The notes under the pieces: generated by a model
Database searches by the model: none
What the model was told of the DNA's origin: nothing
Seen by the model: the letters and a program-made list of their open reading frames with translations, nothing else
Shown: piece after piece, positions 1 to 64,000 of the stretch
How positions within the stretch are numbered: position 1 is the stretch's first letter
Layout of the letters: the number at the start of each line of letters is the position of its first letter
Assembly (NCBI RefSeq): GCF_055900595.2
Contig: NZ_CM148325.1
Length of the DNA: 64,000 nt
Strand: one strand, 5' to 3'
Program-made: the position numbers and the translations under genes

Positions 1-2857
<2,857 letters not shown>

Positions 2858-3030
2858 TCACAACCCGAAGATGTTTCACTTCTGATTGCGAAAATTTGAG
2901 AGACTCACGAACAACTTTCGTTGTTCAGTGTTTCAATTTTCAGCTTGATCCAGATTTTTAAAGAGCAAAACTTCGCAGTGAACCTTTGCAGGTACACTCT
3001 GAAGTATTTTTTATTTAATCACTACAGAGA

Positions 3031-3106
3031 TGGTGGAGCTATGCGGGATCGAACCGCAGACCTCCTGCGTGCAAAGCAGGCGCTCTCCCAGCTGAGCTAT
3101 AGCCCC
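3031..3106 (-). tRNA. alaV: tRNA-Ala (UGC), rRNA spacer tRNA
   Basis: Reverse complement reads GGGGCTATAGCTCAGCTGGGAGAGCGCCTGCTTTGCACGCAGGAGGTCTGCGGTTCGATCCCGCATAGCTCCACCA (76 nt, CCA encoded). Confidence 0.95.
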
Positions 3107-3148
3107 ATAACATGTAGTTAAAACCTCTTCAAATTTGCGGTGCAAATT

Positions 3149-3225
<77 letters not shown>

Positions 3226-3293
3226 GTAGAGGTTTTACTGCTCATTTTCATCAGACAATCTGTGTGAGCACTGCAAAGCACAGTTCTTTCAGG

Positions 3294-4835
<1,542 letters not shown>

Positions 4836-12450: not shown

Positions 12451-12549
12451 GCCGGATGCGGCGTGAGCGCCTTACCCGGCCTACAAAATCTTGCTAATAC
12501 AAAATGTTGCATTATTGGCTGTAGGCCTGATAAGCGCTGCGCATCAGGC
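12451..12549. repeat. BIME: two inverted REP units
   Basis: GCCGGATGCGGCGTGAGCGCCTTACCCGGCCTACA (12451-12485) and the inverted unit TGTAGGCCTGATAAGCGCTGCGCATCAGGC (12520-12549) between convergent yaeF and nlpE. Confidence 0.85.
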
Positions 12550-14891: not shown

Positions 14892-14924
14892 GCCGGATGC
14901 GACGTTTGATGCGTCTTATCCGGC
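14892..14924. repeat. REP unit
   Basis: GCCGGATGCGACG...CGTCTTATCCGGC palindromic unit between convergent rof and tilS. Confidence 0.7.
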
Positions 14925-44903: not shown

Positions 44904-46061
44904 CTACCGCTCTTCATCCAGTTGTAACGCCACATACAGCAGCAACCTGTCATCAAAATTGCCCAAATCAAGCCCGGTCAGTTCCGATATACGATTAAGC
45001 CGATACTCAAGAGTATTACGATGAATAAACAACGCCTTTGACGTTGCCAGCGGTTGCACATTGTGGCGAAACCACGCCGCCAGCGTTCGCCGCAGCAAGC
45101 CGTTATTGTCCATCGCTTTCAGCCGCGCCAGCGGTCGCGCCAGTTCGTTGGCCTGCCAATCGCCACGCAAACTGTCGAGCAACACAGGCAACATCAAATC
45201 CTGATAAAAATAGCAGCGACTTTCGGGCATCCGCTGTTTACCCACCACCATCGTCGTTTTCGCCGTACGATAAGAGCGGGCAATACTGCCTGGTCCGGTA
45301 AAATAGTTACCCAGCGAAACGCGAAAACGTAGCTGACCATACTCTTTCATGCGGGCAATCAGTTGTTCAACTCGCTTACGATGATCTTCTGCATCCCAGC
45401 GCCCAAACGAATTCAACGCCGGTTTCAACACCACCATTTCGGTCAGTGAAACAATCGCCACCAGATTATTACGCTCGGGTGTAGTCAGCGCGTTTTGCAG
45501 TTGCTGTAACTCCGCCATTGCGCTATCCACGCCAAGTTGACCGCTATCGACCTCAACAATAGCCACCACTCGCGGTTGATTGAGATCGACCCCCAGCCGT
45601 TGCGCCCAATCAGTAAGTGCGGGAGTATTCTCCTCGGCCTGAAGGAGGTTCATCACCAGTTCTTCCCGCAAACGGCTATCCTGCGCCAACAGGTGCATCA
45701 ACCGCGACTGTTCCAGCATCATTTCAGCCGTCATGCAGACCAGTTCGCCATATTTACGCAGATTCTCTGGTTCACCTGTCAGGCCAATTACGCCGACAAT
45801 TTCACCTTCCAGCCGTAACGGTAGATTAATCCCCTGCCGCACACCGTGCAGATGACGTGCCACCGCGTCATCGATATCGACGACTCGTCCCTGTGAAAGT
45901 ACCAGCAATGCACCTTCGTGCAATTCACCAATACGCTCACGATCGCCGCTGCCGATAATACGCCCGCGGGCATCCATTACGTTAATATTGGTATCAATGA
46001 TGCGCATGGTGCGCGCCACGATATCCTGCGCCATTTTGGTATCAAGATGCCAGCCAGCCAT
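44904..46061 (-). CDS. cdaR: Carbohydrate diacid regulator CdaR (PucR/CdaR family)
   Basis: ORF track 44904..46079; start placed at MAGWHLDTKMAQDIV (385 aa); C-terminal HTH. Confidence 0.9.
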   Translation of the reverse strand: MAGWHLDTKMAQDIVARTMRIIDTNINVMDARGRIIGSGDRERIGELHEGALLVLSQGRVVDIDDAVARHLHGVRQGINLPLRLEGEIVGVIGLTGEPENLRKYGELVCMTAEMMLEQSRLMHLLAQDSRLREELVMNLLQAEENTPALTDWAQRLGVDLNQPRVVAIVEVDSGQLGVDSAMAELQQLQNALTTPERNNLVAIVSLTEMVVLKPALNSFGRWDAEDHRKRVEQLIARMKEYGQLRFRVSLGNYFTGPGSIARSYRTAKTTMVVGKQRMPESRCYFYQDLMLPVLLDSLRGDWQANELARPLARLKAMDNNGLLRRTLAAWFRHNVQPLATSKALFIHRNTLEYRLNRISELTGLDLGNFDDRLLLYVALQLDEER

Positions 46062-46169
46062 AAGTCCTCCGTTATGCACGGCTTAGCATAAGGAAGTACG
46101 TAACGTACGGCATTGTGCAAATGCCCAAAGGATGAGGAAGATGTATGGAGTTGTGGTGAAGTTCACAGA

Positions 46170-46198
46170 TTGTAAGGAGAACCCCTTCCCGTTTTCAG
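46170..46198 (-). terminator. Terminator-like hairpin after degP
   Basis: AACCCCTTCC-loop-GGAAGGGGTT perfect 10-bp stem immediately downstream of the degP stop; weak U tract. Confidence 0.45.
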
Positions 46199-46215
46199 GA
46201 AGGGGTTGAGGGAGA

Positions 46216-47640
46216 TTACTGCATTAACAAGTAGATGGTGCTGTCGCCGCGCTGAATGTTCAGTGCCAGCACAGACGGTTTGCTGTCGAGAACTTTACGC
46301 AGTTCAGCGATGTTTTTCACTGCCTGCTGGTTCGCACCAATAATCACATCACCTTTCTTCAGGCCGATCTGCGCAGCTGGAGTGCCCGTTTTCACGTTGT
46401 TCACCACCACGCCCTGATCTTTGCCTTTGTTGCTCATCTCAGCGCCTTCAATGCCGTTGAAGATGGTGCTGGAATCAACCTGATTCTGGCTGCTCTGCTG
46501 CAGTTCCAGGTTCACGTTAACCTGCTTCCCGTCGCGCAGTAAGCCCAGGGTCAGTTTGCTGCCTACCGGCATAGTGCCCACCTGAGCACGCAGTGCGGCA
46601 AAGCTGCTGATTGGCTTACCGTTCAGTGAGGTGATCACATCACCCGCTTTAATGCCCGCTTTCGCGGCGGAAGAATTCGGCAGAACCTGGCTTACGAAAG
46701 CACCGCGCTGGGCGTCAACTTTCATCGCTTTCGCCAGATCGGAGTTCAGCTCAGTCCCCATAATACCCAGCTCACCGCGTTTCACCTGGCCGTATTCCAC
46801 CATCTGCGAGGTCAGGTTTTTCACCATGTTACTCGGGATAGCAAAACCGATACCGATGTTGCCGCCGTCCGGTGCGAGGATCGCGGTGTTGATACCGATC
46901 AGTTCGCCGTTCAGGTTAACCAGCGCACCACCGGAGTTACCACGGTTGATCGCAGCATCGGTCTGGATGAAGTTTTCATAGTTTTCGGCATTCAGACCGC
47001 TACGCCCCAGCGCAGAGACAATCCCGGAAGTTACTGTCTCGCCCAGGCCGAACGGGTTACCAATTGCTACGGTGTAATCACCCACGCGCAGTGCATCAGA
47101 ATCCGCCATCTTAATTGCGGTCAGGTTTTTCGGATTCTGGATCTGGATCAGCGCGATATCAGAGCGCGGATCTTTGCCAACCATCTTCGCGTCGAACTTA
47201 CGACCATCGCTCAGCTGGACTTTAATCACCGTCGCGTTATCAACAACGTGGTTGTTGGTGACGACATAGCCTTTATCGGCATCAATGATGACGCCGGAAC
47301 CCAGCGCCATGAATTTTTGTTGCTGGCCGCCGCCATTACCGCCCTGGCCCCCCTGGCAGAACGGAGAGCTCTGGAACGGAGAACCTTCCTGGCAGAACGG
47401 AGAATCATCACCGAAGAACTGCTGGAAATTACGCGGCATACGCGGCGTATTAACGGTTGTGCTACCTTCTACGTTAATGCTGACCACTGAAGGCATCACC
47501 TTTTCGAGCATTGGTGCAAGGCTTGGTATCTGCTGGGCTGTCGTTGCTGAAGAAGTCTCAGCCGCCGTTGCAGAGAGCGGAGATAACGCCAAACCTAAAC
47601 TCAGAGCCAGTGCACTCAGTGCTAATGTGGTTTTTTTCAT
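46216..47640 (-). CDS. degP: Periplasmic serine endoprotease / chaperone DegP (HtrA)
   Basis: 474-aa ORF; signal peptide, trypsin-like protease domain with GNSGGAL active-site motif, two PDZ domains. Confidence 0.96.
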   Translation of the reverse strand: MKKTTLALSALALSLGLALSPLSATAAETSSATTAQQIPSLAPMLEKVMPSVVSINVEGSTTVNTPRMPRNFQQFFGDDSPFCQEGSPFQSSPFCQGGQGGNGGGQQQKFMALGSGVIIDADKGYVVTNNHVVDNATVIKVQLSDGRKFDAKMVGKDPRSDIALIQIQNPKNLTAIKMADSDALRVGDYTVAIGNPFGLGETVTSGIVSALGRSGLNAENYENFIQTDAAINRGNSGGALVNLNGELIGINTAILAPDGGNIGIGFAIPSNMVKNLTSQMVEYGQVKRGELGIMGTELNSDLAKAMKVDAQRGAFVSQVLPNSSAAKAGIKAGDVITSLNGKPISSFAALRAQVGTMPVGSKLTLGLLRDGKQVNVNLELQQSSQNQVDSSTIFNGIEGAEMSNKGKDQGVVVNNVKTGTPAAQIGLKKGDVIIGANQQAVKNIAELRKVLDSKPSVLALNIQRGDSTIYLLMQ

Positions 47641-47685
47641 GTATTTCAGTCTCGATTAACAGATAACGCAAAATTGCTGTGTTCT

Positions 47686-47713
47686 TCAGATTCGTTTTAT
47701 AGCGCGAAGTTCC
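47686..47713 (-). promoter_or_regulatory. Sigma-E-type promoter of degP
   Basis: Minus strand GGAACTT (47713-47707) - 16 nt - TCTGA (47690-47686), matching the sigma-E consensus about 45 nt upstream of the degP start codon. Confidence 0.6.
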
Positions 47714-47769
47714 GAACTAAAGTTTCTGCAAAAGGTAAAAATTTATTGTTCGTCTTTACAAAAGCCTGG

Positions 47770-49287
47770 TTATTGTTCTACGGCCATCAGACGTCGGTAT
47801 TCATCCCAGGCATAGAGGTCGGTCATACCGCTGATATAATCCTGCAGCAGGCGGCAACGGTAATAATATTCCCATAGCGGAAACTCAGGAGAATCTGACG
47901 GTAATTTACTGACAGCCTCGACATAGGCCAGCCGATGGCGCGTCGAGAGTTTGTGGAATAAGCGCGATTCAATAGGGAAACGTTTCACCCGTTCTTTTTC
48001 TACCAGTTCAGTAAAGTCTGATAACGACAGGCTTAATAAAGGGCGATAAATCTCTAATAATCCGCTAATGACCCGATAGCCCTGCAATTCAAGCTGCTCG
48101 ACATCTGGATGGCTAAACACATGTTTTACAGCGACATTTTTATATAGCTTTAGAAGATCGCTGCATTCGCTGGCATCTTCCAATAATGCATGATTAAACG
48201 TTCCGGCGAAAATCGCAGGCAGATTATCAATAAATCGTTGTGCCGCGTAGGGTACCAGTTTATTTAGGGTGTTTACCCGTAAATACATAAAAAACTGATC
48301 TTCCGTACTGCGGCTTAAACTATTTGAGCGTGATTTTTCCCAGGCATTTTCAACCACCAGCGAAAAGAGCGAACCTTTCTCATGCTGGCCCCACGCTTCG
48401 TGCAAATGATGATAAAGCTGCTCAACGCTGAATATTCTTTTCTCTACCGCATCTTCAAGATCTGCCACACAATAGGAGATGTCGTCGGCAGCTTCCATAA
48501 TCCACGTTAATGGAAAACGACTGTAAAGCGCCAAATTAAGTTCTTTACGCAACCGGGCAATATAAGCTTCTTCAGAAAGATAATAACCCGGCTTTTTCAT
48601 TAAATAGTGATGTGTCTCAGGCGTTTCGCCACGCCACCACGCCGGACGGGTATATTTTAAAATACCGCCAACCTGTGCCCAGGTGAGATTCATCCGCATC
48701 AATGTATGCACCAGACGAATACCTTGTGCATTCCCCTCAAAATGGCATAAGTCCTGACGAATTTTGCGCCGCAGTTCGTTAAGCGGTTCTTCCCCTTCCC
48801 GTAAACGTAATGCCACCACGCAGCAGCGATCGTCAGTCAGAGGCTGGCTTTCGGCATCAGCCGGAAACAAACGCTGGCGAAACCAGTCATTTATCGCCGC
48901 TTCACCAAAATGGCCAAACGGCGGATTGCCGATATCGTGCATCAGGCATGACATCTCAACAATACTTTCAAAGGGGCCGGTCAGTTCATCCAGACCATAA
49001 TCTTCCAGTAATTTAAGCTCTTTCAGACGGCTTAAAATTTCTTTGGCGATGTAGCGCCCCACCTGCTGGACTTCCATTGAATGGGTTAGACGCGTGCGCA
49101 CGGCGGCATTTCGCTCCAGCGGAAAAACCTGGGTCTTTTGTTGCAGACGACGAATTGCCGGAGAGTTGATAATACGTCCGCGATCGCTCTCAAAGATTCG
49201 CAGGATCTCATGTTCGGTTTTAACGCCCTGTGGTGAACGGTAACGACGATGCCAGTTTATTTTTTTTCGGAAATCAATCTGTGCCAT
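47770..49287 (-). CDS. dgt: dGTP triphosphohydrolase
   Basis: 505-aa ORF with HD-domain motifs ([13 protein letters not shown]). Confidence 0.95.
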
Positions 49288-49370
49288 GTCCTCTCCCGCG
49301 TGAGAAATACGCTTCCCCGTAAGCGCATGGTAAACTATGCCTTCAAATCGGGCTTATCGCGAGTAAATCT

Positions 49371-50069
49371 ATGAAAATCGGCATCATTGGTGCAATGGAA
49401 GAAGAAGTTACGCTGCTGCGTGACAAAATCGAAAACCGCCAAACTATCAGTCTGGGCGGTTGCGAAATCTATACCGGCCAACTGAATGGAACCGAAGTTG
49501 TGCTTCTGAAATCGGGCATCGGTAAAGTCGCTGCGGCACTGGGTGCAACTCTGCTGTTGGAACACTGCAAGCCAGATGTGATTATTAACACCGGTTCTGC
49601 CGGTGGCCTGGCACCAACGCTGAAAGTGGGCGATATCGTTGTCTCGGACGAAGCACGTTATCACGACGCGGATGTCACGGCATTTGGTTATGAATACGGT
49701 CAGTTACCAGGCTGCCCGGCAGGCTTCAAAGCTGACGATAAACTGATCGCTGCCGCTGAGGCCTGCATTGCCGAACTGAATCTTAACGCTGTACGTGGCC
49801 TGATTGTCAGCGGCGACGCTTTCATCAACGGTTCTGTTGGCCTGGCGAAAATCCGCCACAACTTCCCGCAGGCCATTGCTGTAGAGATGGAAGCGACGGC
49901 AATCGCTCATGTCTGCCACAATTTTAACGTCCCGTTTGTTGTCGTACGCGCCATCTCCGACGTGGCCGATCAACAGTCTCATCTTAGCTTCGATGAGTTC
50001 CTGGCTGTTGCTGCTAAACAGTCCAGTCTGATGGTTGAGTCACTGGTGCAGAAACTGGCACATGGCTAA
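49371..50069 (+). CDS. mtn: 5'-methylthioadenosine / S-adenosylhomocysteine nucleosidase
   Basis: 232-aa ORF. Confidence 0.95.
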
Positions 50070-50862
50070 GTCACTGTTCAGGGCGCTGGTCGCCCTGTCT
50101 TTTCTCGCGCCGCTGTGGCTCAACGCCGCGCCGCGCGTCATCACGCTTTCACCCGCCAACACTGAACTTGCTTTTGCCGCCGGGATCACGCCGGTAGGGG
50201 TCAGCAGTTATTCCGACTACCCTCCACAAGCGCAAAAGATTGAGCAGGTTTCAACCTGGCAGGGGATGAATCTCGAACGCATTGTGGCCCTTAAACCCGA
50301 TCTGGTGATTGCCTGGCGTGGAGGTAATGCCGAGCGGCAGGTTGACCAGTTAGCTTCGCTGGGAATAAAAGTAATGTGGGTCGATGCGACAAGCATTGAA
50401 CAAATTGCCAATGCGTTACGTCAACTGGCCCCCTGGAGCCCACAACCGGACAAGGCTGAACAAGCCGCGCAATCCCTGCTGGACCAGTACGCACAATTGA
50501 AAGCGCAATATGCTGATAAACCTAAAAAACGTGTTTTTCTGCAATTCGGCATTAATCCGCCATTTACCAGTGGAAAAGAGTCGATTCAAAACCAGGTACT
50601 CGAAGTTTGTGGCGGAGAAAACATCTTTAAAGACAGCCGGGTTCCCTGGCCGCAAGTTAGCCGCGAACAGGTGTTAGCACGCGCGCCACAGGCGATTGTC
50701 ATTACAGGTGGACCGGACCAAATTCCTAAAATCAAACAATACTGGGGTGAACAGCTCAAAATTCCCGTTATTCCTCTCACGAGTGACTGGTTTGAACGTG
50801 CAAGCCCACGTATTATCCTCGCTGCACAACAGCTCTGTAATGCGCTTTCACAGGTAGATTAG
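50062..50862 (+). CDS. btuF: Vitamin B12 periplasmic binding protein
   Basis: ORF track 50035..50862; start placed at [22 protein letters not shown] (266 aa, signal peptide); 8-nt overlap with mtn. Confidence 0.92.
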
Positions 50863-50899
50863 CGCCTGATCTTTTCAGGTGCTCAGTGGGGATAGAACA

Positions 50900-51523
50900 A
50901 TGCTCGTCTATTGGCTGGATATAGTCGGCACAGCGGTATTTGCCATCTCCGGCGTTTTGTTAGCCGGAAAATTGCGTATGGACCCTTTTGGTGTTCTGGT
51001 ACTGGGCGTGGTTACCGCAGTAGGCGGCGGGACAATTCGCGACATGGCGCTGGATCACGGCCCGGTCTTTTGGGTGAAAGATCCCACCGATCTGGTTGTT
51101 GCAATGGTGACCAGTATGCTGACGATCGTGCTGGTGCGCCAGCCAAGACGCTTACCGAAATGGATGTTGCCGGTGCTGGATGCCGTTGGTCTGGCGGTGT
51201 TTGTCGGCATTGGCGTGAATAAAGCCTTTAATGCGGAAGCCGGTCCGTTGATCGCGGTTTGTATGGGCGTCATTACTGGCGTTGGCGGCGGGATCATTCG
51301 TGATGTACTGGCCCGCGAAATCCCCATGATTTTACGCACAGAAATCTACGCAACGGCCTGTATTATCGGCGGTATTGTCCACGCTACGGCTTATTACACA
51401 TTTTCCGTGCCCCTGGAAACAGCCAGTATGATGGGCATGGTCGTGACGCTATTGATTCGACTGGCGGCTATTCGTTGGCATCTTAAGCTACCGACGTTTG
51501 CGCTGGATGAGAATGGGCGTTGA
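50900..51523 (+). CDS. yadS: Glycine-rich TRIC-like membrane protein (UPF0126)
   Basis: ORF track 50879..51523; start placed at MLVYWLDIVGTAVFAISG (207 aa); duplicated GGG-containing hydrophobic halves. Confidence 0.88.
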   Translation: MLVYWLDIVGTAVFAISGVLLAGKLRMDPFGVLVLGVVTAVGGGTIRDMALDHGPVFWVKDPTDLVVAMVTSMLTIVLVRQPRRLPKWMLPVLDAVGLAVFVGIGVNKAFNAEAGPLIAVCMGVITGVGGGIIRDVLAREIPMILRTEIYATACIIGGIVHATAYYTFSVPLETASMMGMVVTLLIRLAAIRWHLKLPTFALDENGR

Positions 51524-51534
51524 AGAGTGAAGAT

Positions 51535-51557
51535 GTGCCGGATAGTTTATCCGGCAC
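51535..51557. other. Perfect 9-bp inverted repeat between convergent yadS and erpA
   Basis: GTGCCGGAT-AGTTT-ATCCGGCAC; no flanking U/A tract on either side. Confidence 0.4.
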
Positions 51558-51569
51558 ATGAACAACAGA

Positions 51570-51914
51570 TTAGATGCTGAAGGAAGAACCGCAACCGCAG
51601 GTGCTTTTCGCGTTCGGGTTGGTCACGATGAAACGAGAACCTTCCAGACCTTCGGTATAGTCAACGGAACCGCCGACCAGATATTGCAGGCTCATCGGGT
51701 CAACCACCAGGCCAACGCCCTGTTTTTCGATGGTCATATCGCCTTCGTTCACCTGATCATCAAAGGTGAAACCATACTGGAAGCCGCTGCAACCGCCACC
51801 GGTGATATACACGCGTAATTTCAGATTCGGGTTATCTTCGTCAGCGATCAGGCTTTTAACTTTGTTGGCTGCTGCGTCGGTAAACTCCAGCGGCAGTGCT
51901 ACGTCATCACTCAT
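51570..51914 (-). CDS. erpA: Iron-sulfur cluster insertion protein ErpA (A-type carrier)
   Basis: ORF track 51570..51947; start placed at [13 protein letters not shown] (114 aa); C-terminal CGCG Fe-S ligand motif. Confidence 0.94.
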
Positions 51915-51995
51915 ATTTTGCTCCAAACGACATCGGCAATTGGGCAAATTCTAACCCAATAATAATCGCCATTATCTAATACCCTGGTATTTCGT

Positions 51996-53435
<1,440 letters not shown>

Positions 53436-53641
53436 TCATACAAATAAGATGACGGCATTTTACTCGCACGTTCCATGAAAATCCTTTGCAAAGCGTAATG
53501 TTTCAAATGCACAAAACTTTTATACTCTATGAAATCAGGATTGCACCAGCACAAGCAACCTGACGTTTGACGAGTATTTAACTTGTTATGAATAACATAG
53601 AATAGCAGCCATTCACTTTTTCTACGAATCAGGAACCCTCC

Positions 53642-54922
53642 ATGAGTAAGTCTGAAAATCTATACAGCGCAGCGCGCGAGCTGATCCCTGGCGGTGTGAA
53701 CTCCCCTGTTCGCGCCTTTACCGGCGTGGGCGGCACTCCACTGTTTATCGAAAAAGCGGACGGCGCTTATCTGTACGATGTTGATGGCAAAGCCTATATC
53801 GATTATGTCGGTTCCTGGGGGCCGATGGTGCTGGGCCATAACCATCCGGCGATCCGCAATGCCGTGATTGAAGCCGCCGAGCGTGGTTTAAGCTTTGGTG
53901 CACCGACCGAAATGGAAGTGAAAATGGCGCAACTGGTGACCGAACTGGTCCCGACCATGGATATGGTGCGCATGGTGAACTCCGGCACTGAAGCGACAAT
54001 GAGTGCCATCCGCCTGGCCCGCGGTTTTACCGGTCGCGACAAAATCATTAAATTTGAAGGTTGTTACCACGGTCACGCTGACTGCCTGCTGGTAAAAGCC
54101 GGTTCTGGCGCACTCACGTTAGGCCAGCCAAACTCGCCGGGCGTTCCGGCAGATTTCGCCAAACATACATTAACCTGTACTTATAACGATCTGGCCTCTG
54201 TACGCGCCGCGTTTGAGCAATACCCGCAAGAGATTGCCTGTATTATTGTCGAGCCAGTAGCAGGCAACATGAACTGTGTTCCGCCGCTGCCAGAGTTCCT
54301 ACCGGGTCTGCGCGCACTGTGCGACGAATTTGGCGCATTGCTGATCATCGATGAAGTGATGACCGGTTTCCGCGTGGCGCTGGCTGGCGCGCAGGATTAT
54401 TACGACGTGGTGCCAGACCTCACCTGCCTGGGCAAAATCATCGGCGGTGGAATGCCGGTAGGCGCATTCGGTGGTCGTCGTGATGTGATGGATGCGCTGG
54501 CCCCGACCGGTCCGGTCTATCAGGCGGGTACGCTTTCCGGTAACCCGATTGCGATGGCAGCCGGTTTCGCCTGTCTGAATGAAGTCGCGCAGCCGGGCGT
54601 TCACGAGACGCTGGATGAGCTGACAACACGTCTGGCAGAAGGTCTGCGGGAAGCGGCAGAAGAAGCGGGAATTCCATTGGTCGTTAACCATGTTGGCGGC
54701 ATGTTCGGTATTTTCTTTACCGACGCCGAGTCCGTGACGTGCTATCAGGATGTGATGGCCTGCGACGTCGAGCGCTTTAAGCGTTTCTTCCATATGATGC
54801 TGGACGAAGGTGTTTACCTGGCACCGTCAGCGTTTGAAGCGGGCTTTATGTCTGTGGCGCACAGCATGGAAGATATCAATAACACCATCGATGCTGCACG
54901 TCGGGTGTTTGCGAAGTTGTGA
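53642..54922 (+). CDS. hemL: Glutamate-1-semialdehyde 2,1-aminomutase
   Basis: 426-aa ORF, PLP-dependent class III aminotransferase. Confidence 0.96.
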
Positions 54923-54935
54923 TCCAGCATGGTTT

Positions 54936-55021
54936 GTCGGATGCGGCGTAAACGCCTTATCCGACCTACAGATCAGGACCGTTTGTAGGCCCGATAAGAC
55001 GCCACAGCGTCGCATCGGGCA
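54936..55021. repeat. BIME: two inverted REP units
   Basis: GTCGGATGCGGCGTAAACGCCTTATCCGACCTACA and inverted TGTAGGCCCGATAAGACGCCACAGCGTCGCATCGGGCA between convergent hemL and fhuB. Confidence 0.85.
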
Positions 55022-55079
55022 TCCGTTGCCGCGTAAAAGCTTTATCCATCCAGGAGTTAAGGGCCGTTATATGGAAAAA

Positions 55080-57062
55080 TTAACGGCTCTGCTTTCTCAA
55101 CAAATAGATAAAATACGGCGCGCCGATAAAGGTCGACAGCAGCCCCGCTGGGATCTGGAATGGAAACAGCACCATCCGCCCACACCAGTCAGCGAACACC
55201 AGCAGTAATCCCCCCACCAGCGCCGAAATCACAATATGCGGCATCGTCCGTCGAAAGCCCATCATCCGTGCGATATGCGGTGCCATCAGGCCAACAAAAC
55301 TCAACGGCCCGATGGTCATTGTCGCGGTCGCCGTCAGGCAAGCCGCCAGCAGCAGTAGCGCAATTCGCGTCGGCGTCAGCGCCATTCCCACGGCTCGTGC
55401 GGTATCACCTCCCAGCGGTAAAATGGTCAGCCAGCGGCGGCACAGCGGGGTAATCGCCAGCAAAATCACCATCACAATTCCGGTGCGCCAGACCTGCGCC
55501 TCGGTCGCGTTGTAGGTCGAACCGGAAATCCAGGTCAGAACTTGCGCCATTCGCGGGTCACCACTTGCCTGCAACATCATCAAAAGCATGGTGAACGCGG
55601 TACTTAACGCCATCCCCGCCAGTAACATGCGGTGTGGAGAAAATCCACCGCGTCCGGCGGCGATCATAATGATCAACAGCGTCACCGCCGCCCCGAGACT
55701 TCCCGCGGGTAACAGCCAGCCAAAGGCATTACCCGGCACCAGAAACAGCATTAACACCACGCCAAACGCCGCGCCGGAGCTAATCCCCAGCACTTCCGGG
55801 CTTGCCATCGGGTTGCCGGTCAGCCGCTGAATAATACAGCCCGCCACCGCCAGCATGACGCCCGCAAACAGCGCCGCCATAATTCGCGGCCAGCGCCAGG
55901 GCATCAAATCCTCGAGCAGCGCCCCGCTCGCCCACGTCCAGCCGTGCGCATCACGACCAAACGACAGCGCCACCACCACAGCAATTATCAGCAGCACACC
56001 GCCAGCAAGGGCAAACGCCAGCACATGTTGGCGTTCAGTCGCGACACGATCGTTGGCCTTCATATCCGGCGCACTGATGCTGCGTAAACGCGGCAGCAGC
56101 CACAGTAACAGCGGCGCACCTATCAACGCCGTCATCGAACCGGTAGAAACTTCCATCCACACGCGAGTCAGCCAGAGGATGATTTGATCGGAAAGCCAGA
56201 GGATCAGCGCACCAATCAGTGACGCCAGCAGCAGTCTTGGCAGCAGACGCCGCGCCCCCAGCATTTTTGCCAGCAGCGGCGCGAACAACCCGATAAAGCC
56301 GATAATCCCCACCGCGTTCACCAGCAGAGCACTGATGACTATCGCCAGCGACAGCGCCGCCAGACGCGCGAGCGATAAAGCCAGTCCGAGATTACGCGCC
56401 ACGCCATCATCAAGCCCCATCAGGGTTAATGGACGAAGTAGCAGTAACGTCAACATCACGCCGCCCAGCAGCTGTGGCCATAAACGCTCAACGCCGCCCC
56501 AGTCGGTTTGCGTCAGCGTTCCGGTACTCCACAGGAACATGCTTTGTAGCTGGTCGTGATGGAAGATAACCAGTAACTGATTGATTGCCCCGCAATAAAG
56601 GCTCACCACAAGCCCCGCGAGGATCAGCGTTACCGGAGAAAGCCGTTTCCCCCACGCGACGCCAAAGACAATTAAGCCAACCACACAAGCCCCTGCCAAT
56701 GCAGCAAACTGGCTCGCCATAGCACCAGGGATCGCCCAGAGCGTGGTGACGGTAATCCCCAGTTGCGCGCCTGTAGCAACGCCCAACGTGGTCGGTTCCG
56801 CCAGCGGGTTACGTAACACTTGCTGAAACAGCACGCCCACCAGTCCCAGACCCGCGCCCACCAGCAGCGAAATCGCCAGACGTGGCAGCAAGCTGTAGTG
56901 AAAAATCATCTGCTCGATGACGTCAATATCCGGCGACCAGGCAGCCTGCGCCCACTGGCTACGCGGCAGCGCCTGAGAGAAGTTCATCCAGGTGAGCACC
57001 GCTGCGGCAACCACCAACAGCGCCAGCAATAATGCCGGGAAAAGCGCAATACGTTTACTCAC
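55080..57062 (-). CDS. fhuB: Ferric hydroxamate ABC transporter permease (duplicated)
   Basis: 660-aa hydrophobic ORF with two FecCD-like halves. Confidence 0.95.
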   Translation of the reverse strand: MSKRIALFPALLLALLVVAAAVLTWMNFSQALPRSQWAQAAWSPDIDVIEQMIFHYSLLPRLAISLLVGAGLGLVGVLFQQVLRNPLAEPTTLGVATGAQLGITVTTLWAIPGAMASQFAALAGACVVGLIVFGVAWGKRLSPVTLILAGLVVSLYCGAINQLLVIFHHDQLQSMFLWSTGTLTQTDWGGVERLWPQLLGGVMLTLLLLRPLTLMGLDDGVARNLGLALSLARLAALSLAIVISALLVNAVGIIGFIGLFAPLLAKMLGARRLLPRLLLASLIGALILWLSDQIILWLTRVWMEVSTGSMTALIGAPLLLWLLPRLRSISAPDMKANDRVATERQHVLAFALAGGVLLIIAVVVALSFGRDAHGWTWASGALLEDLMPWRWPRIMAALFAGVMLAVAGCIIQRLTGNPMASPEVLGISSGAAFGVVLMLFLVPGNAFGWLLPAGSLGAAVTLLIIMIAAGRGGFSPHRMLLAGMALSTAFTMLLMMLQASGDPRMAQVLTWISGSTYNATEAQVWRTGIVMVILLAITPLCRRWLTILPLGGDTARAVGMALTPTRIALLLLAACLTATATMTIGPLSFVGLMAPHIARMMGFRRTMPHIVISALVGGLLLVFADWCGRMVLFPFQIPAGLLSTFIGAPYFIYLLRKQSR

Positions 57063-57949
57063 GCTTTACCTCCGATGGCGTTATCCAGAATACGCACAAA
57101 GTGCATTGCCGAGAGCGTCGCACCATAAAACCAGACTGCGGGGACGCGCTGAAAGCGTCCGGCACGGACAAACGGCATGGCCTGCCACAGCGGGGTTGCC
57201 ATTAGTGCGTCCATGTCTTTGCTGTTGTCGTGATCAAAACAGAGCACATCAACGTCCTTATACGCTGCCAGACGATCGATACTGACGGCAGTACTGCCCC
57301 AGAAGTTGGTTTCTCCTTGCCAGGCATTTGGGATGCCGTACTCATCGAGAATTTCCTGGAACAGGCTGTTCGGGCCGAAGACCAGCATATGGCGTGGATC
57401 GATAAGCGTCGTCAGCAATAACGGGCGCGCACCACGCTTCACAAAACGGGGTTTCATGCTGCGGATGAAGTCTTCATAGTGCGCTAAATGCGTTTCTGCT
57501 GCGCTTTGCAGGTTAAGCAAATCTGCCATTTCCGTCAGCGATTTACGCGCCATCGCCAGCGGCTGTTTGCCGTCGCTGAAGTTAAATCCGCGCCCCGGCG
57601 CAATACGTGCCAGCATTTCTGGCGAAGGGCCATACCCTGCCGACCAGACCATAAACGACGGCTTCATTTCGGTCAGCAGTTCAAGGTTAGGTTCTGTCCG
57701 CAAACCGACGTCAATCACCGATTCAGGTAATGGCGGTTCGCTGACCCACAGGCGATAGTTGATGGTATCCGCCACGCCGTAAGGCACGATGCCTAGCGCC
57801 AGCAGTAATTCCACCGGCAACCACTCCAGCGCCACAATACGCTTTGGATCAATAGCCGCCGCGCGGGCGGTATTCATCTGCCATAACAACGGAGATAGCG
57901 CCATCGCTGTTAACAGTCGACGGCGCGTAATTAGAGGTAAGCCACTCAT
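57059..57949 (-). CDS. fhuD: Ferric hydroxamate periplasmic binding protein
   Basis: ORF track 57059..57952 (alternative Met one codon upstream); Tat-like RRRLL signal; 4-nt overlap with fhuB. Confidence 0.93.
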   Translation of the reverse strand: MSGLPLITRRRLLTAMALSPLLWQMNTARAAAIDPKRIVALEWLPVELLLALGIVPYGVADTINYRLWVSEPPLPESVIDVGLRTEPNLELLTEMKPSFMVWSAGYGPSPEMLARIAPGRGFNFSDGKQPLAMARKSLTEMADLLNLQSAAETHLAHYEDFIRSMKPRFVKRGARPLLLTTLIDPRHMLVFGPNSLFQEILDEYGIPNAWQGETNFWGSTAVSIDRLAAYKDVDVLCFDHDNSKDMDALMATPLWQAMPFVRAGRFQRVPAVWFYGATLSAMHFVRILDNAIGGKA

Positions 57950-58746
57950 CAATAAACAAAACTCACAGGTGCAGCACCCGCCGGATGCGGCAAAATTCCC
58001 ATCGGGATGCCATAAATCATTTCGAGGGTTTCGCCGCGCATAATTTCCGCAGGCGTTCCCTGCGCAATCATTTCACCGCCGCGCAGGGCGACCAGATAAT
58101 CACAGTAACGCGCAGCCATATTGATATCGTGCAGCACGGCAATGACCGTCAGGCCACGCTCCTGACTTAAACGGTGCACCAGCGCCAGCACATCAACCTG
58201 GTGGGCGATATCCAGCGCCGAGGTCGGTTCGTCGAGCAACAGACAACGGCTATCCTGCGCCACCAGCATGGCGATCCACGCCCGTTGACGTTCGCCGCCA
58301 GAGAGGCTATCGACCAGCCGATGCGCCAGCGGTTTTAAGCCAACCAGCGAGATAGCCTCTTCGACCTTTTCGCGATCTGCCGCGCCAAAGCGCCCCAGCG
58401 CGCCATGCCACGGGTAACGACCAATCGCCACCAGTTCACGCACCGTCATCCCTTCTGCCGGAGGAAGCTGCTGCGGCAAATAAGCCACTTTGCGAGCAAA
58501 CGCTTTGCTGCTCCAGCTTTCCAGCGGCTGGGCATCAAGAAGAATCTCCCCTTCTGACGGTGGCTGATGGCGGCCCAACATTTTTAACAGCGTGGATTTA
58601 CCAGAGCCGTTGTGACCAATCAGACCGGTCACTTTCCCGGCAGGAAAGGTTAACGACAGCGGATGCAAAAGCGTGCGCCCGGGCACACGAAAGGAGATAT
58701 TACGCAGTGCAAAAGTGGTATCGGAATGATTCGTGTATTCCTGCAT
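57949..58746 (-). CDS. fhuC: Ferric hydroxamate ABC transporter ATPase
   Basis: ORF track 57949..58851; start placed at MQEYTNHSDTTFALRNISF (265 aa); Walker A GHNGSGKST, signature LSGGERQR. Confidence 0.94.
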   Translation of the reverse strand: MQEYTNHSDTTFALRNISFRVPGRTLLHPLSLTFPAGKVTGLIGHNGSGKSTLLKMLGRHQPPSEGEILLDAQPLESWSSKAFARKVAYLPQQLPPAEGMTVRELVAIGRYPWHGALGRFGAADREKVEEAISLVGLKPLAHRLVDSLSGGERQRAWIAMLVAQDSRCLLLDEPTSALDIAHQVDVLALVHRLSQERGLTVIAVLHDINMAARYCDYLVALRGGEMIAQGTPAEIMRGETLEMIYGIPMGILPHPAGAAPVSFVY

Positions 58747-58796
58747 AACAGCCAACTTGTGAAACGGGCACGGAAATCCGTGCCCCAAAAGAGAAA

Positions 58797-60992
58797 TTAG
58801 AAACGGAAGGTTGCGGTTGCAACGACCTGACGTTCTGCGCCCCAGTAACATGCATAATCACGATAGCAACTGGAGACATATTCGCGGTCGAACAGGTTAT
58901 TTACGTTAACACCAACAGAAGAACCAGGCATACCGAAACGAGCAAGATCATATTTTATCATTGCATCAACCAAGGTATACCCCCCAACATTGAATGTCTG
59001 ATTGGTCTTATCACCCGTAGTGTAGAAACTTGAGGTGTCGCCAAAATAACGTGCCCCTGCACCAAGACTCAGACCACTAAGAGCTGTTTCGTGGAAAGTG
59101 TAATCTGCCCACAGCGAAGCCATATTTCGGGGGACCTCTGCCGGGCGTTTACCCTTGTACAATGTATCTTTGGTGTATTCAGCATCGGTGTAGCTGTATG
59201 CCGCAGTCACATTGATATTAGCGTTGACAGCTGCTTTAGCCTCAATCTCAAAGCCACGAGAACGAATCTCCCCCCCTTGTACGCTAAACAAAGTATTACT
59301 TGGATCTGCAGTCAGATTTTTGTCTTTCGTTAATTGGAATACCGAGGCAGTGACAGTGACAGGCGTATCTTTTGGTACGTATTTGACACCTGCTTCGTAC
59401 TGCTTACCGCGAGAAGGATCAAACGGTTTACCTTCTTTAGTCGCTCCAGATACTGGCTCGAAGGATTCGCTATAACTGAAATAAGGTGAAATACCATTAT
59501 CGAACAGATAATTAATACCACCTCTCCAGGTGAACTGCTGATCGTTAATTTCATCCAAAGAACTCGTTGAACGAGTATAGGTAGAGGTTTTCGCAAAATC
59601 GTAACGACCACCCAGCGTCAATACCCACTTATTCCACTCAGACTGATCCTGAATATAAAGGCCTGTCTGTTCCTGACGGTTAATTACCGCATATGGGAAA
59701 TTGATATTGATATTGGCGTTACCGTACTGTGGATCCGTCATGCTAATCGGATTAGCAGTACCATAGTTTGCATCAATATCGTTACGCATTCGCAGGTAAT
59801 CCACGCCAGTAAGCAAAGTATGCGCTACAGCACCGGTAGCAAAGTTGGACTGTAGTTGCGTATCAACAGTAAACGAATTTAAATCTTCGTCTGAACGTAC
59901 ATAAGCACGGCTAATTTGCGCTGGCGCGATGTAACCATTGCCATATACTGCATCGTAGAGTGTATGAATGCGGGTATAGCGCAGATTCTGACGTACAGTA
60001 AAAGTATCATTAAATTCATGAGCAAAACTGTAGCCAATTAATTGTTGACGACGAGACATCTTATTATCTTTCTCGCCTTCATTGAAATCTGTTGGCAATT
60101 TGTGCCAGCTACCATTTGCATCCTGATAGGGAACAACAGTTCCCTGGCGCGGTAACCAACCATAATAGCCCGCATCGGGATCACTCTGGAAATTACTCAG
60201 GAAAGTGAAATCCGTTTTATCATCAGGACGCCAACTGAATGAGGGAGCAACTGCATACCTTGTAGTTTTTGCGTACTTTTGTTGCGCATCCTGACTACGT
60301 CCTAATCCCGTCAAACGATATGACCAAACGCCATCATCATCTATTGCATCACTAAAATCGAATCCGGTCTGCCAAAGATTATCCGTTCCCATTTTGAACT
60401 GGATCTCTTTAATCGGATCCGTTGAAGGCCGTTTGCTTACCATGCTCACTACTCCGCCCGGATGGCTTTTACCATACAGTACGGATACTGGGCCACGGAG
60501 TAATTCCACACGCTCAAGGAAATAAGGATCAATAGAGGCTTCAGAGTAGTTATCCCCCTGAAGTTTTAAGCCATCCAGATATTGGTTAGTATTTACTGTA
60601 CTGGCTGTAGTAAATCCACGTATAGAAACAACATCATACGTTGTTGAACTACCACGCGTTGAAAAGACACTTGGCGTATAATCCAGAGCTTCTTTTACCG
60701 TTGCGGGTTGTTTGATATCCATCTCTTCCCGGGTCACAACCGAAATAGACTGCGGCGTTTTTTCAATTGGTGTATCCGTTTTAGTCGCAGTAGCAGAGTG
60801 CTTCGCCGCAATAGTTGCAGCTGGCCCCCATGCGCTTTCTTGCGGCGCTGGTGCAGCGGTAACGGTGATAGTGTCTTCTTTCGGTTCAACCGCTGCCTGT
60901 GCATAAACAGACATGCCGCTAACCGCTGTGGCTACTACAACTGCGATTTTACGCAGTGAGTGTTTTGGCTGAGCAGTTTTGGAACGCGCCAT
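58797..60992 (-). CDS. fhuA: TonB-dependent ferrichrome outer-membrane transporter FhuA, divergent mosaic allele
   Basis: 731-aa ORF. The first ~62 residues (signal peptide, TonB-box DTITV) and last ~11 residues (AERQVVATATFRF) match K-12 FhuA as I recall it; the interior is clearly homologous but heavily substituted and 16 aa shorter, and its DNA is AT-rich. Confidence 0.9.
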   Translation of the reverse strand: MARSKTAQPKHSLRKIAVVVATAVSGMSVYAQAAVEPKEDTITVTAAPAPQESAWGPAATIAAKHSATATKTDTPIEKTPQSISVVTREEMDIKQPATVKEALDYTPSVFSTRGSSTTYDVVSIRGFTTASTVNTNQYLDGLKLQGDNYSEASIDPYFLERVELLRGPVSVLYGKSHPGGVVSMVSKRPSTDPIKEIQFKMGTDNLWQTGFDFSDAIDDDGVWSYRLTGLGRSQDAQQKYAKTTRYAVAPSFSWRPDDKTDFTFLSNFQSDPDAGYYGWLPRQGTVVPYQDANGSWHKLPTDFNEGEKDNKMSRRQQLIGYSFAHEFNDTFTVRQNLRYTRIHTLYDAVYGNGYIAPAQISRAYVRSDEDLNSFTVDTQLQSNFATGAVAHTLLTGVDYLRMRNDIDANYGTANPISMTDPQYGNANININFPYAVINRQEQTGLYIQDQSEWNKWVLTLGGRYDFAKTSTYTRSTSSLDEINDQQFTWRGGINYLFDNGISPYFSYSESFEPVSGATKEGKPFDPSRGKQYEAGVKYVPKDTPVTVTASVFQLTKDKNLTADPSNTLFSVQGGEIRSRGFEIEAKAAVNANINVTAAYSYTDAEYTKDTLYKGKRPAEVPRNMASLWADYTFHETALSGLSLGAGARYFGDTSSFYTTGDKTNQTFNVGGYTLVDAMIKYDLARFGMPGSSVGVNVNNLFDREYVSSCYRDYACYWGAERQVVATATFRF

Positions 60993-61065: not shown

Positions 61066-61171
61066 AACGCTGGCGGGTTCGCAAGCGGTACGCAATCTGA
61101 GCATTCCTGAGGGGTTAATAAACAATCAGATGAAAAGAAAGGGTTAATACTTTGGGTAGGATGTTATTTTA

Positions 61172-61194
61172 CCGGATGGCGACTCGCCATCCGG
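61172..61194. other. Palindrome downstream of mrcB
   Basis: CCGGATGGCG-A-CTCGCCATCCGG 10-bp inverted repeat; no U tract in the mrcB transcript sense. Confidence 0.35.
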
Positions 61195-61211
61195 TATGTC
61201 ACGCTTAGACG

Positions 61212-63839: not shown

Positions 63840-64000
63840 TCATGAATACTTTTTCGTCCGTCGCGTCGGTGCGGTATTTGCCGGATCATCCGGCCAGACG
63901 TGTTTGGGATAACGCCCTTTCATCTCTTTTTGCACATCGCGATACGCTCCTTTCCAGAAGGCGCTCAAATCTCGTGTGATTTGCAGCGGCCTTTGGGCAG
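63840..64000 (-). CDS. hrpB: Probable 3' end of ATP-dependent RNA helicase gene hrpB (partial, enters from window edge)
   Basis: Minus-strand frame open for 53 codons from the window edge to a TGA at 63840-63842 (…[29 protein letters not shown]); hrpB precedes mrcB in K-12. The exact stop is uncertain: the spacing to mrcB differs from what I recall. Confidence 0.5.

What the first reader, a model, noticed from the sequence alone, without database searches (positions are those of the whole stretch)
51524..51569. Perfect palindrome between convergent yadS and erpA without U tract
GTGCCGGAT-AGTTT-ATCCGGCAC forms a 9-bp perfect stem in the 46-bp gap between two converging genes. It lacks a poly-U tract in either direction, so it is more likely a processing/stability hairpin or protein-binding palindrome than a classical intrinsic terminator.
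Basis: seen in the sequence. Interest (0 to 1): 0.2.

Follow-up and report, generated by a model that had tools for sequence, protein, structure and literature searches.

The report
Shared 3'-end hairpin of erpA and yadS
A conserved 12-base-pair RNA hairpin sits between the converging E. coli genes erpA and yadS and marks the mapped 3' end of the erpA mRNA; it is an ordinary example of a known kind of hairpin found at the ends of transcripts whose termination depends on the factor Rho.

Summary
The palindrome is real and longer than reported: 12 perfect pairs with a 3-nt loop (window 51533-51559), in the 46-nt gap between the yadS and erpA stop codons. dG is about -19 kcal/mol on either strand, and no shuffle gives such a stem. 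The 31-mer is identical in 5358 of 5424 complete E. coli genomes. Against E. albertii it shows three compensatory pair changes plus G-U pairs that form only in the erpA-sense RNA, so the structure is selected at the RNA level.

Published Term-seq (Adams 2021) puts the erpA mRNA 3' end 3-4 nt after the stem in all three growth conditions. The same study lists bicyclomycin-sensitive (Rho) regions on both strands 110-160 nt beyond the hairpin. Downstream of the hairpin the erpA-sense RNA is C-rich and G-poor.

Best reading: this hairpin defines and protects the 3' end of Rho-terminated transcripts. On the erpA side it is at most a weak intrinsic terminator. There the tail is a degenerate C/U tract, and it fails the terminator scan in this window only because of a rare SNP. 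The yadS side has no U tract.

The stem equals the base of a Y-type REP unit, but the element fails the REP membership tests. The find is ordinary and of low interest.

The parts
51533..51559 (.). Hairpin with a 12-bp perfect stem (51533-51544 pairs with 51548-51559) and a 3-nt loop (51545-51547). It is transcribed in both directions: as the yadS 3' UTR on the + strand and the erpA 3' UTR on the - strand.
   Evidence: It is identical in 5358 of 5424 E. coli genomes. Covariation with E. albertii is.
51523..51532 (-). Degenerate C/U tail after the hairpin in the erpA sense (CUUCACUCUU). Position 51528 carries the rare allele: A in the erpA sense here, U in other E. coli.
51529..51530 (-). Positions equivalent to the Term-seq erpA mRNA 3' ends mapped in MG1655 (176995 and 176994), 3-4 nt after the last stem base.
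   Evidence: Adams et al. 2021, supplementary file 1. Coordinates transferred through, using window = 228524 minus the MG1655 coordinate.
51433..51532 (-). C-rich, G-poor stretch (35% C, 18% G) immediately downstream of the hairpin in the erpA sense. It resembles a Rho loading (rut) site and lies antisense to the 3' end of yadS.
   Evidence: 98th percentile of 100-nt windows. The Rho termination region at MG1655 177151(+) corresponds to window 51373.
51560..51672 (+). Stretch downstream of the hairpin in the yadS sense, up to the reported Rho termination region (MG1655 176852(-), window 51672). It has no U tract and no C-over-G bias.
50900..51523 (+). yadS coding sequence (TRIC/PF03458 membrane protein). 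Its stop codon is at 51521-51523.
51570..51914 (-). erpA coding sequence (A-type iron-sulfur carrier). Its stop codon is at 51570-51572.

Best explanation
The palindrome encodes an RNA stem-loop that lies in the 3' untranslated region of both converging mRNAs. Its main job is to define and protect the mature 3' end.

**Proposed mechanism.**
1. RNA polymerase largely transcribes through the hairpin.
2. Rho releases polymerase within roughly the next 100-200 nt, in RNA that is antisense to the opposite gene and therefore untranslated.
3. 3'-to-5' exonucleases then trim the transcript back to the base of the hairpin, which blocks them.

**By direction.**
- erpA: the degenerate C/U tail may add a minor share of direct, weak intrinsic termination.
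- yadS: there is no U tract at all.

**Shown versus inferred.**
- Shown: the structure and its conservation, the covariation, the erpA 3' end position, and Rho-sensitive regions on both strands.
- Inferred: the order of events (Rho release followed by trimming) and the same role for yadS.
For: - **Stability.** The 12-bp hairpin is stable in both senses and far beyond chance.
- **Selection within E. coli.** The 31-mer is identical in 98.8% of 5424 E. coli genomes, while the short flanks of the gap are polymorphic.
- **Covariation.** Between E. coli and E. albertii there are 3 pairs with compensatory double changes. 99% of cells are paired, against 25-41% when the partner is slid.
- **RNA-level signal.** G-U wobbles in E. 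albertii and in strain RMDEC465 pair only in the erpA-sense RNA.
- **Mapped 3' end.** The Term-seq primary erpA 3' end is at MG1655 176994, 176995 and 176994 in three growth conditions. That is 3-4 nt after the stem end at 176991.
- **Rho dependence.** Rho termination regions are listed at 177151(+) (Rho score 16.7, p about 1e-35) and at 176852(-) (score 4.85, p about 5e-8). By the authors' own criterion, a 3' end within 500 nt of such a region is associated with Rho-terminated transcripts.
- **Rut-like sequence.** The 100 nt downstream in the erpA sense are 35% C and 18% G, the 98th percentile in the window.
Against: - The erpA-side tail is not random. It is a C/U run that is homologous to a better U tract in E. 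albertii (tail score -4.28). It passes the lenient terminator scan in MG1655.
- At least 41 of 80 erpA orthologues end in a hairpin with a T-rich foot. Intrinsic termination may therefore be the ancestral function and still partly operate.
- The Rho score uses 800-nt windows. With bicyclomycin, downstream coverage (382) exceeds upstream coverage (200). Part of the signal could therefore come from antisense promoters inside yadS and btuF rather than from erpA read-through.
- No yadS 3' end is listed in the curated Term-seq tables, so the yadS half is inference.
- The yadS-sense downstream RNA shows no C-over-G bias.
- All the experimental data are from MG1655, not from the strain of this window.
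Confidence: 0.6

Rival explanations
1. The hairpin with its C/U tail is a working, if leaky, intrinsic terminator for erpA. Most erpA transcripts end there directly, possibly with help from NusA or NusG. Rho only mops up the read-through. For yadS it is incidental.
For: - MG1655 and E. albertii alleles are called terminator-like on the erpA strand.
- The tail is homologous to the E. albertii U-rich tail.
- G-U wobbles favour the erpA-sense RNA.
- Relatives carry canonical bidirectional terminators in the same gap (Citrobacter FP75, Enterobacter Ag1 and BIGb0383, E. cloacae, Kluyvera, L114).
- The erpA 3' end lies inside the tail, as it does for the canonical mtn terminator in the same table.
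Against: - The first tail position is C, and only 3-4 of the first 8 tail bases are U. The tail score of -2.5 to -2.8 falls within the top 10-18% of random 15-mers.
- There is no A tract upstream of the stem.
- A strong bicyclomycin-dependent region lies on that strand 157 nt downstream.
- The window allele weakens the tail further.
Confidence: 0.25
2. It is a collision-type bidirectional terminator, as proposed by Ju et al. 2019 and Wang et al. 2022. The stem-loop positions head-on collisions between polymerases from erpA and yadS, and trailing polymerases complete the release, independently of Rho and of a U tract.
For: - A convergent gene pair with a short gap holds a single stem-loop that does not look like a canonical intrinsic terminator. 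This is the class described.
- DirectRNA-seq coverage is of similar size on the two strands without bicyclomycin (131 against 86 reads in the upstream windows).
Against: - That class was defined as Rho-independent. Here both strands show bicyclomycin-sensitive regions.
- Only the erpA 3' end is detected.
- I could not obtain the published list of 306 bidirectional terminators, so membership was not checked.
Confidence: 0.1
3. It acts at the DNA level. It could be a REP-type element bound by gyrase, IHF, Pol I or a RAYT transposase, or a palindromic operator for a dimeric regulator.
For: The stem is TGCCGGAT...TATCCGGCA with an AAAC loop, which equals the base and loop of Y-type REP units. True REPs occupy the same gap in Citrobacter and Pseudescherichia.
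Against: - It has no upper stem, no internal mismatch and no GTAG/CTAC foot.
- The 31-mer occurs at one locus per genome.
- E. albertii changes 7 stem bases while keeping the pairing, and its arms are no longer symmetric as DNA (G-T). That fits an RNA structure, not a protein recognition sequence.
- An RNA 3' end is mapped at its foot.
Confidence: 0.04

Closest known systems
Protective 3'-terminal stem-loops of Rho-dependent transcripts (Dar & Sorek 2018, NAR 46:6797)
   Same: - A stable stem-loop of terminator-like size.
- No A tract upstream and a poor U tail.
- A precise steady-state 3' end a few nt after the stem.
- Bicyclomycin-sensitive read-through.
- C-over-G bias just downstream, in the erpA sense.
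   Different: - One hairpin serves two converging genes.
- The yadS side lacks the C-over-G bias and has no mapped 3' end.
- The erpA tail keeps remnants of a U tract.
- Dependence on exonucleases was not tested for this locus.
Canonical bidirectional intrinsic terminators between convergent genes (A tract, GC stem, T tract)
   Same: Same position and same apparent role. Orthologous gaps in Citrobacter, Enterobacter and Kluyvera carry exactly such terminators.
   Different: - There is no A tract, and no U tract on the yadS side.
- The erpA side has only an alternating C/U tail.
- Rho-dependent regions lie on both strands.
REP elements, Y-type palindromic unit (consensus T GCCGGAT GCGGCGTAAACGCCTT ATCCGGC CTAC, as seen in the MG1655 sample)
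   Same: - It shares TGCCGGAT, the AAAC loop and TATCCGGC.
- Like REPs it sits in the 3' UTR between convergent genes. About 60% of REPs lie between convergent genes, and REPs act as partly Rho-dependent terminators and mRNA stabilisers.
   Different: - It is 27 nt, against about 35-40 nt for a REP unit.
- It is a perfect palindrome, with no upper stem and no mismatch.
- It has no GTAG/CTAC foot.
- It is single-copy as a 31-mer.
- Deriving it from a Y unit would need two separate deletions that flank the loop.
Collision-driven bidirectional terminators (Ju et al. 2019; Wang et al. 2022 bioRxiv 10.1101/2022.10.23.513370)
   Same: A convergent gene pair with a single stem-loop in the gap and no canonical terminator sequence.
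   Different: That class is described as Rho-independent. Here Rho-dependent regions flank the hairpin on both strands.

Membership tests
Canonical intrinsic (Rho-independent) terminator | GC-rich stem-loop in the nascent RNA | tested here: met
   12 bp, 6 of them G-C, with dG about -19 to -20 kcal/mol in both senses.
Canonical intrinsic (Rho-independent) terminator | U-rich tract immediately 3' of the stem | tested here: not met
   - The window is not called by the scan.
- Tail scores are -2.51 (erpA sense) and -1.51 (yadS sense), against -3.79 for the neighbouring mtn terminator.
- The erpA side is borderline only in other strains: the MG1655 allele is called.
Canonical intrinsic (Rho-independent) terminator | Termination independent of Rho (no bicyclomycin-induced read-through) | tested here: not met
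   This comes from published data, not from my own experiment. Rho termination regions are listed at MG1655 177151(+) and 176852(-), 157 nt and about 110 nt beyond the hairpin. The resolution is limited by the 800-nt windows.
Protective stem-loop at the 3' end of Rho-dependent transcripts | Steady-state RNA 3' end immediately downstream of a stable stem-loop | tested here: met
   The erpA 3' end is at +3/+4 from the stem in three growth conditions. No yadS 3' end is listed.
Protective stem-loop at the 3' end of Rho-dependent transcripts | Tail not U-rich and no A tract upstream | tested here: met
   The erpA side keeps a degenerate C/U run.
Protective stem-loop at the 3' end of Rho-dependent transcripts | C-over-G (rut-like) sequence just downstream, together with Rho dependence | tested here: inconclusive
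   Met in the erpA sense (35% C, 18% G, 98th percentile; Rho score 16.7). Not met in the yadS sense for composition (C-G = -0.04), although a Rho region is reported there with score 4.85.
Protective stem-loop at the 3' end of Rho-dependent transcripts | The 3' end is generated by PNPase or RNase II trimming back to the hairpin | not testable with these tools
   This needs Term-seq or northern blots in pnp and rnb mutants.
REP (Y-type palindromic unit) | Basal stem GCCGGAT / ATCCGGC | tested here: met
REP (Y-type palindromic unit) | Imperfect palindrome of about 35-40 nt, with upper stem GCGGCG/CGCC and an internal mismatch | tested here: not met
   The element is a 27-nt perfect palindrome with only AAAC(T) between the basal arms.
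REP (Y-type palindromic unit) | GTAG/CTAC tetranucleotide foot | tested here: not met
   The flanks are ATGT and ACAT.
REP (Y-type palindromic unit) | Dispersed multi-copy family | tested here: not met
   The 31-mer matches one locus per genome in 5424 genomes. The two 'places' reported are the two strands of the palindrome. The MG1655 REP annotation could not be consulted, because the tool shows no REP features even for the true tilS-rof REP.
Collision-type bidirectional terminator (Ju 2019) | Located between convergent genes and encodes a stem-loop | tested here: met
Collision-type bidirectional terminator (Ju 2019) | Independent of Rho | tested here: not met
   Rho regions lie on both strands.
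Collision-type bidirectional terminator (Ju 2019) | Overlapping 3' ends of both convergent transcripts in SEnd-seq | not tested
   The paper and its tables are not held.

The most novel reading that the evidence does not exclude
The hairpin is a domesticated remnant of a Y-type REP unit (basal stem and loop kept, upper stem and foot lost). It would belong to a small, so far unnamed class of 'mini-REP' hairpins (GCCGGAT, a short loop, ATCCGGC) that E. coli keeps as compact 3'-end elements. Other candidates are the hairpin after yodC (MG1655 2028148-2028170) and window 63880-63894. Such hairpins appear about 2-3 times in roughly 300 kb sampled, against about 0.2 expected by chance in the whole genome.
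Probability: 0.25. Interest if true: 0.35.

Novelty: new member of a known kind. Interest (0 to 1): 0.15.

Why it matters
Its importance is mostly local. erpA is an essential iron-sulfur carrier under aerobic growth, and the hairpin probably sets the length and stability of its mRNA. It also keeps erpA and yadS transcription from running antisense into each other.

The locus is a clean natural example of three things:
- One hairpin serves two converging genes.
- An intrinsic terminator can decay into a Rho-assisted hairpin. The U tract is good in E. albertii, degenerate in E. coli, and weakened further by one SNP in this strain.
- 3'-end elements turn over quickly. Close relatives carry a canonical terminator, REP pairs or this mini hairpin in the same gap.

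None of this changes current understanding.

Tried and rejected
- **Rfam.** A permissive search of 2 kb around the site gave nothing relevant, only a chance snoRNA hit at E = 2.7.
- **Literature on this hairpin.** Searches for 'erpA' with 'yadS', and for 'erpA' with 'terminator' and 'Rho', found no paper that discusses it.
- **Supplementary tables.** Those of Dar & Sorek 2018 and of the EHEC Term-seq paper are not held. Ju et al. 2019 is not held either.
- **REP annotation of MG1655.** The tool lists no REP features even where a true REP exists, so it could not be used.
- **Locus-specific REP homology.** The Citrobacter REP in L109 shares ATGT...ACAT flanks and an AAAC loop with the E. coli hairpin. 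A 248-kb MG1655 sample showed that the AAAC loop, the T...A flanks and the CTACA foot are generic to Y-type REPs. The match is therefore to the family, not to an orthologous copy, and deriving the hairpin from a REP would need two deletions. I keep this only as a minority reading.
- **More Escherichia lineages.** Exact-protein look-ups returned only E. coli with an invariant hairpin and E. albertii. I did not obtain Salmonella, Shigella or E. fergusonii.
- **A frame error.** My first yadS translation was one base out of frame. I corrected it.
- **Protein-binding palindrome.** Rejected on the covariation pattern.

Full report
**1. What is in the sequence**

The window is E. coli. It is 100% identical over the region to strain Z0117EC0005 and 97-98% identical to most other strains. 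The local gene order is mtnN, btuF and yadS on the + strand, converging on erpA, yadW and clcA on the - strand.

The yadS stop codon is at 51521-51523 and the erpA stop codon is at 51570-51572 on the - strand.

The palindrome is longer than reported. It is ATGTGCCGGATA GTT TATCCGGCACAT at 51533-51559, with 12 perfect pairs and a 3-nt loop. It starts 9 nt after the yadS stop and 10 nt after the erpA stop.

As RNA it folds with MFE -20.1 kcal/mol in the yadS sense and -19.0 in the erpA sense. The z-scores are about -6.8, and none of 200 shuffles folds as well.

Only three perfect hairpins of at least 12 bp exist in the 64-kb window. 100 dinucleotide shuffles produced none.

**2. Conservation and covariation**

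The locus is present once in 5424 of 5426 complete E. coli genomes. The 31-mer that covers the hairpin is identical in 5358 of them. It has one mismatch in 61 genomes and two in 5. The "two places per genome" in that search are the two strands of the palindrome.

The few variants I sampled fall into two groups:
- MIN6 changes a pair next to the loop, leaving 10 bp at -17.6 kcal/mol.
- RMDEC465 changes the loop and the outermost pair.

The 19 gap bases outside the hairpin carry several common polymorphisms.

E. albertii has the same element at the same place: ATATGCCGGCCA ATC TGGTCGGCATAT. Against E. coli, seven stem bases differ and every pair is kept. There are three double compensatory changes (G-C to A-U, A-U to C-G, U-A to C-G) and one G-C to G-U change.

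On the 8-sequence alignment, 99% of cells are paired, against 25-41% when the 3' partner is slid by 1-3 columns. This rests on a single E. coli to E. albertii branch, so it counts as three independent double events, not a broad phylogeny.

Two wobbles pair only in the erpA-sense RNA: the G-U in E. albertii and the outer-pair G-U in RMDEC465. In the yadS sense both become A-C mismatches. In E. albertii the energies are -19.7 and -15.6 kcal/mol for the two senses. This points to selection on an RNA structure, with the erpA transcript as the main client.

**3. The tail**

In the yadS sense the hairpin is followed by GAACAACAGAUUAGA, which has no U tract (tail score -1.51).

In the erpA sense the tail differs between lineages. 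The scores use the TransTermHP tail function, whose candidate cut-off is -2.5.

| Sequence | erpA-sense tail | Tail score |
|---|---|---|
| This window | CUUCACUCUUCAACG | -2.51 |
| MG1655 | CUUCUCUCUUCAACG | -2.80 |
| E. albertii | UUUCUCUCUUUAACG | -4.28 |
| Neighbouring mtn terminator (for comparison) | UCUUUUCUCGCGCCA | -3.79 |

The scan tool does not call the window sequence a terminator. It does call the same hairpin on the erpA strand in MG1655 and in E. albertii.

The difference between the window and MG1655 is one SNP at window 51528. The exact window 56-mer occurs in only 11 of 5424 genomes, and all 15 other E. coli alleles I read carry the commoner base. For erpA the tail is a decayed C/U tract.

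**4. Experimental data**

Adams et al. 2021 (eLife 10:e62438) list a "primary" erpA 3' end at MG1655 176994, 176995 and 176994 in their three growth conditions, with 2,551-4,475 reads. In MG1655 the hairpin spans 176965-176991. The RNA therefore ends 3-4 nt after the stem (...GGCACAU-CUU or -CUUC). This corresponds to window 51530 and 51529.

No yadS-sense 3' end is listed near the hairpin.

Their bicyclomycin experiment lists two Rho termination regions here:
- 177151(+), antisense to yadS. Rho score 16.7, p about 1e-35. Downstream-to-upstream reads are 15/131 untreated and 382/200 treated.
- 176852(-), antisense to erpA. Rho score 4.85, p about 5e-8.

These lie 157 nt and about 110 nt beyond the hairpin. 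[quoted passage not shown] They note that such transcripts are trimmed by exonucleases.

The 100 nt downstream of the hairpin in the erpA sense are 35% C and 18% G, the 98th percentile of the window, which is rut-like. The yadS-sense side shows no such bias.

**5. Mechanism**

These facts match the class defined by Dar & Sorek 2018. [quoted passage not shown] They protect against PNPase and RNase II and have rut sites immediately downstream.

My best explanation (confidence about 0.6) has three steps:
1. Polymerase mostly passes the hairpin.
2. Rho terminates in the untranslated antisense RNA beyond it.
3. Exonucleases trim back to the hairpin, which then fixes and protects the 3' end.

On the erpA side the C/U tail may add a minor share of direct termination.

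The structure, its selection, the erpA 3' end and the Rho sensitivity are shown. The order of events and the role for yadS are inferred.

The spacing of 9-10 nt from each stop codon puts the stem base about at the leading edge of a terminating ribosome. This rests on established toeprint geometry and is my inference. It would leave no ribosome-free RNA upstream of the hairpin for Rho to load on.

From memory, Liang, Rudd & Deutscher 2015 reported that REP hairpins within about 15 nt of a stop codon can stall ribosomes. I could not verify this in the library, so it remains an untested possibility for this locus.

**6. Rivals**

- **Leaky intrinsic terminator for erpA, with Rho as back-up (about 0.25).** It is supported by the homologous U tract in E. 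albertii, the scan calls in MG1655, and the fact that at least 41 of 80 erpA orthologues end in a hairpin with a T-rich foot. Several relatives also have textbook A-stem-T bidirectional terminators in this very gap. It is weakened by the poor proximal tail and the strong bicyclomycin effect.
- **Collision-type bidirectional terminator (about 0.1).** The geometry fits, but that class is defined as Rho-independent.
- **DNA-level REP or operator function (about 0.04).** The covariation pattern and the mapped RNA end argue against it.

**7. Relation to REPs**

The stem reads TGCCGGAT...TATCCGGCA with loop AAAC in the erpA sense. In a 248-kb MG1655 sample, Y-type REP units read T GCCGGAT GCGGCGTAAACGCCTT ATCCGGC CTAC. 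The hairpin therefore equals the base and loop of a Y unit.

True REPs occupy the orthologous gap in C. werkmanii, in other Citrobacter and in Pseudescherichia.

The element fails the tests that define a REP:
- It has no upper stem, no mismatch and no GTAG/CTAC foot.
- It is 27 nt rather than about 35-40 nt.
- It occurs at one locus per genome.

The features it shares with the Citrobacter REP turned out to be generic to the family. Deriving it from a Y unit needs two deletions on either side of the loop.

I file it as "works like a REP in a 3' UTR", meaning a partly Rho-dependent terminator and stabiliser, but not as a member. REP descent is a minority reading (about 0.25).

**8. Verdict**

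The element is a new, uncharacterised member of a well-known kind, and its 3' end is already present in a published Term-seq table. Interest is low (0.15).

Noticed in passing
window 61170-61196 (- strand sense): A perfect 13-bp palindrome, TACCGGATGGCGA-g-TCGCCATCCGGTA, lies 15 nt after the mrcB stop and before fhuA. It is followed by AAAATAAC. This is a second strong hairpin without a U tract at a gene's 3' end, and one of only three perfect stems of at least 12 bp in the window.
   Followed up: partly
window 50079-50097 (+ strand): A hairpin with a T tract (CAGGGCGCTGGTCGCCCTG TCTTTTCT) lies inside the first codons of btuF, just after the overlapping mtnN stop. Adams 2021 lists it as the mtn primary 3' end (MG1655 178421/178423) with 45,000-59,000 reads. 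A strong terminator therefore sits inside the btuF reading frame and should limit btuF expression from the mtn promoter.
   Followed up: partly
L116 28148-28170 (MG1655 2028148-2028170); window 63880-63894: There are other 'mini' hairpins built on the REP basal stem with a very short loop. CAGGCCGGAT GTG ATCCGGCCTG lies about 20 nt after the yodC stop, and GCCGGATCATCCGGC lies in the window. Together with the erpA hairpin that makes 2-3 in about 300 kb, against about 0.2 expected by chance per whole genome. They may form a small unnamed class.
   Followed up: partly
L107-L114, and L008, L009 (Citrobacter loci, erpA-yadS gap): Genomes that encode an identical ErpA protein carry three different elements in this gap: a 100-nt REP pair, a differently arranged 119-nt REP pair, and a 44-nt canonical A-stem-T bidirectional terminator. 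The 3'-end element has turned over quickly.
   Followed up: partly
window 14892-14924: A single REP lies between the convergent tilS and rof genes: GCCGGATGCGACGTTTGATGCGTCTTATCCGGC. It lacks the CTAC foot. Adams 2021 lists a strong Rho region antisense to tilS at MG1655 213495(-), with score 30.7.
   Followed up: no
window 51528: This strain carries a rare SNP in the erpA-sense tail (A where nearly all E. coli have U). The exact 56-mer is found in 11 of 5424 genomes. The SNP alone moves the hairpin from 'called terminator-like' to 'not called' in the scan.
   Followed up: yes
window about 51907-51972 (- strand), by homology to L001 2034-2099: RefSeq annotates a 21-residue small protein, YadW, whose reading frame overlaps the start of erpA by 8 nt. 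This suggests translational coupling upstream of erpA.
   Followed up: no
window 12525-12549 (+ strand): A Z-type REP unit with an intact foot: GTAG GCCTGATAAGCGCTGCGCATCAGGC A.
   Followed up: no
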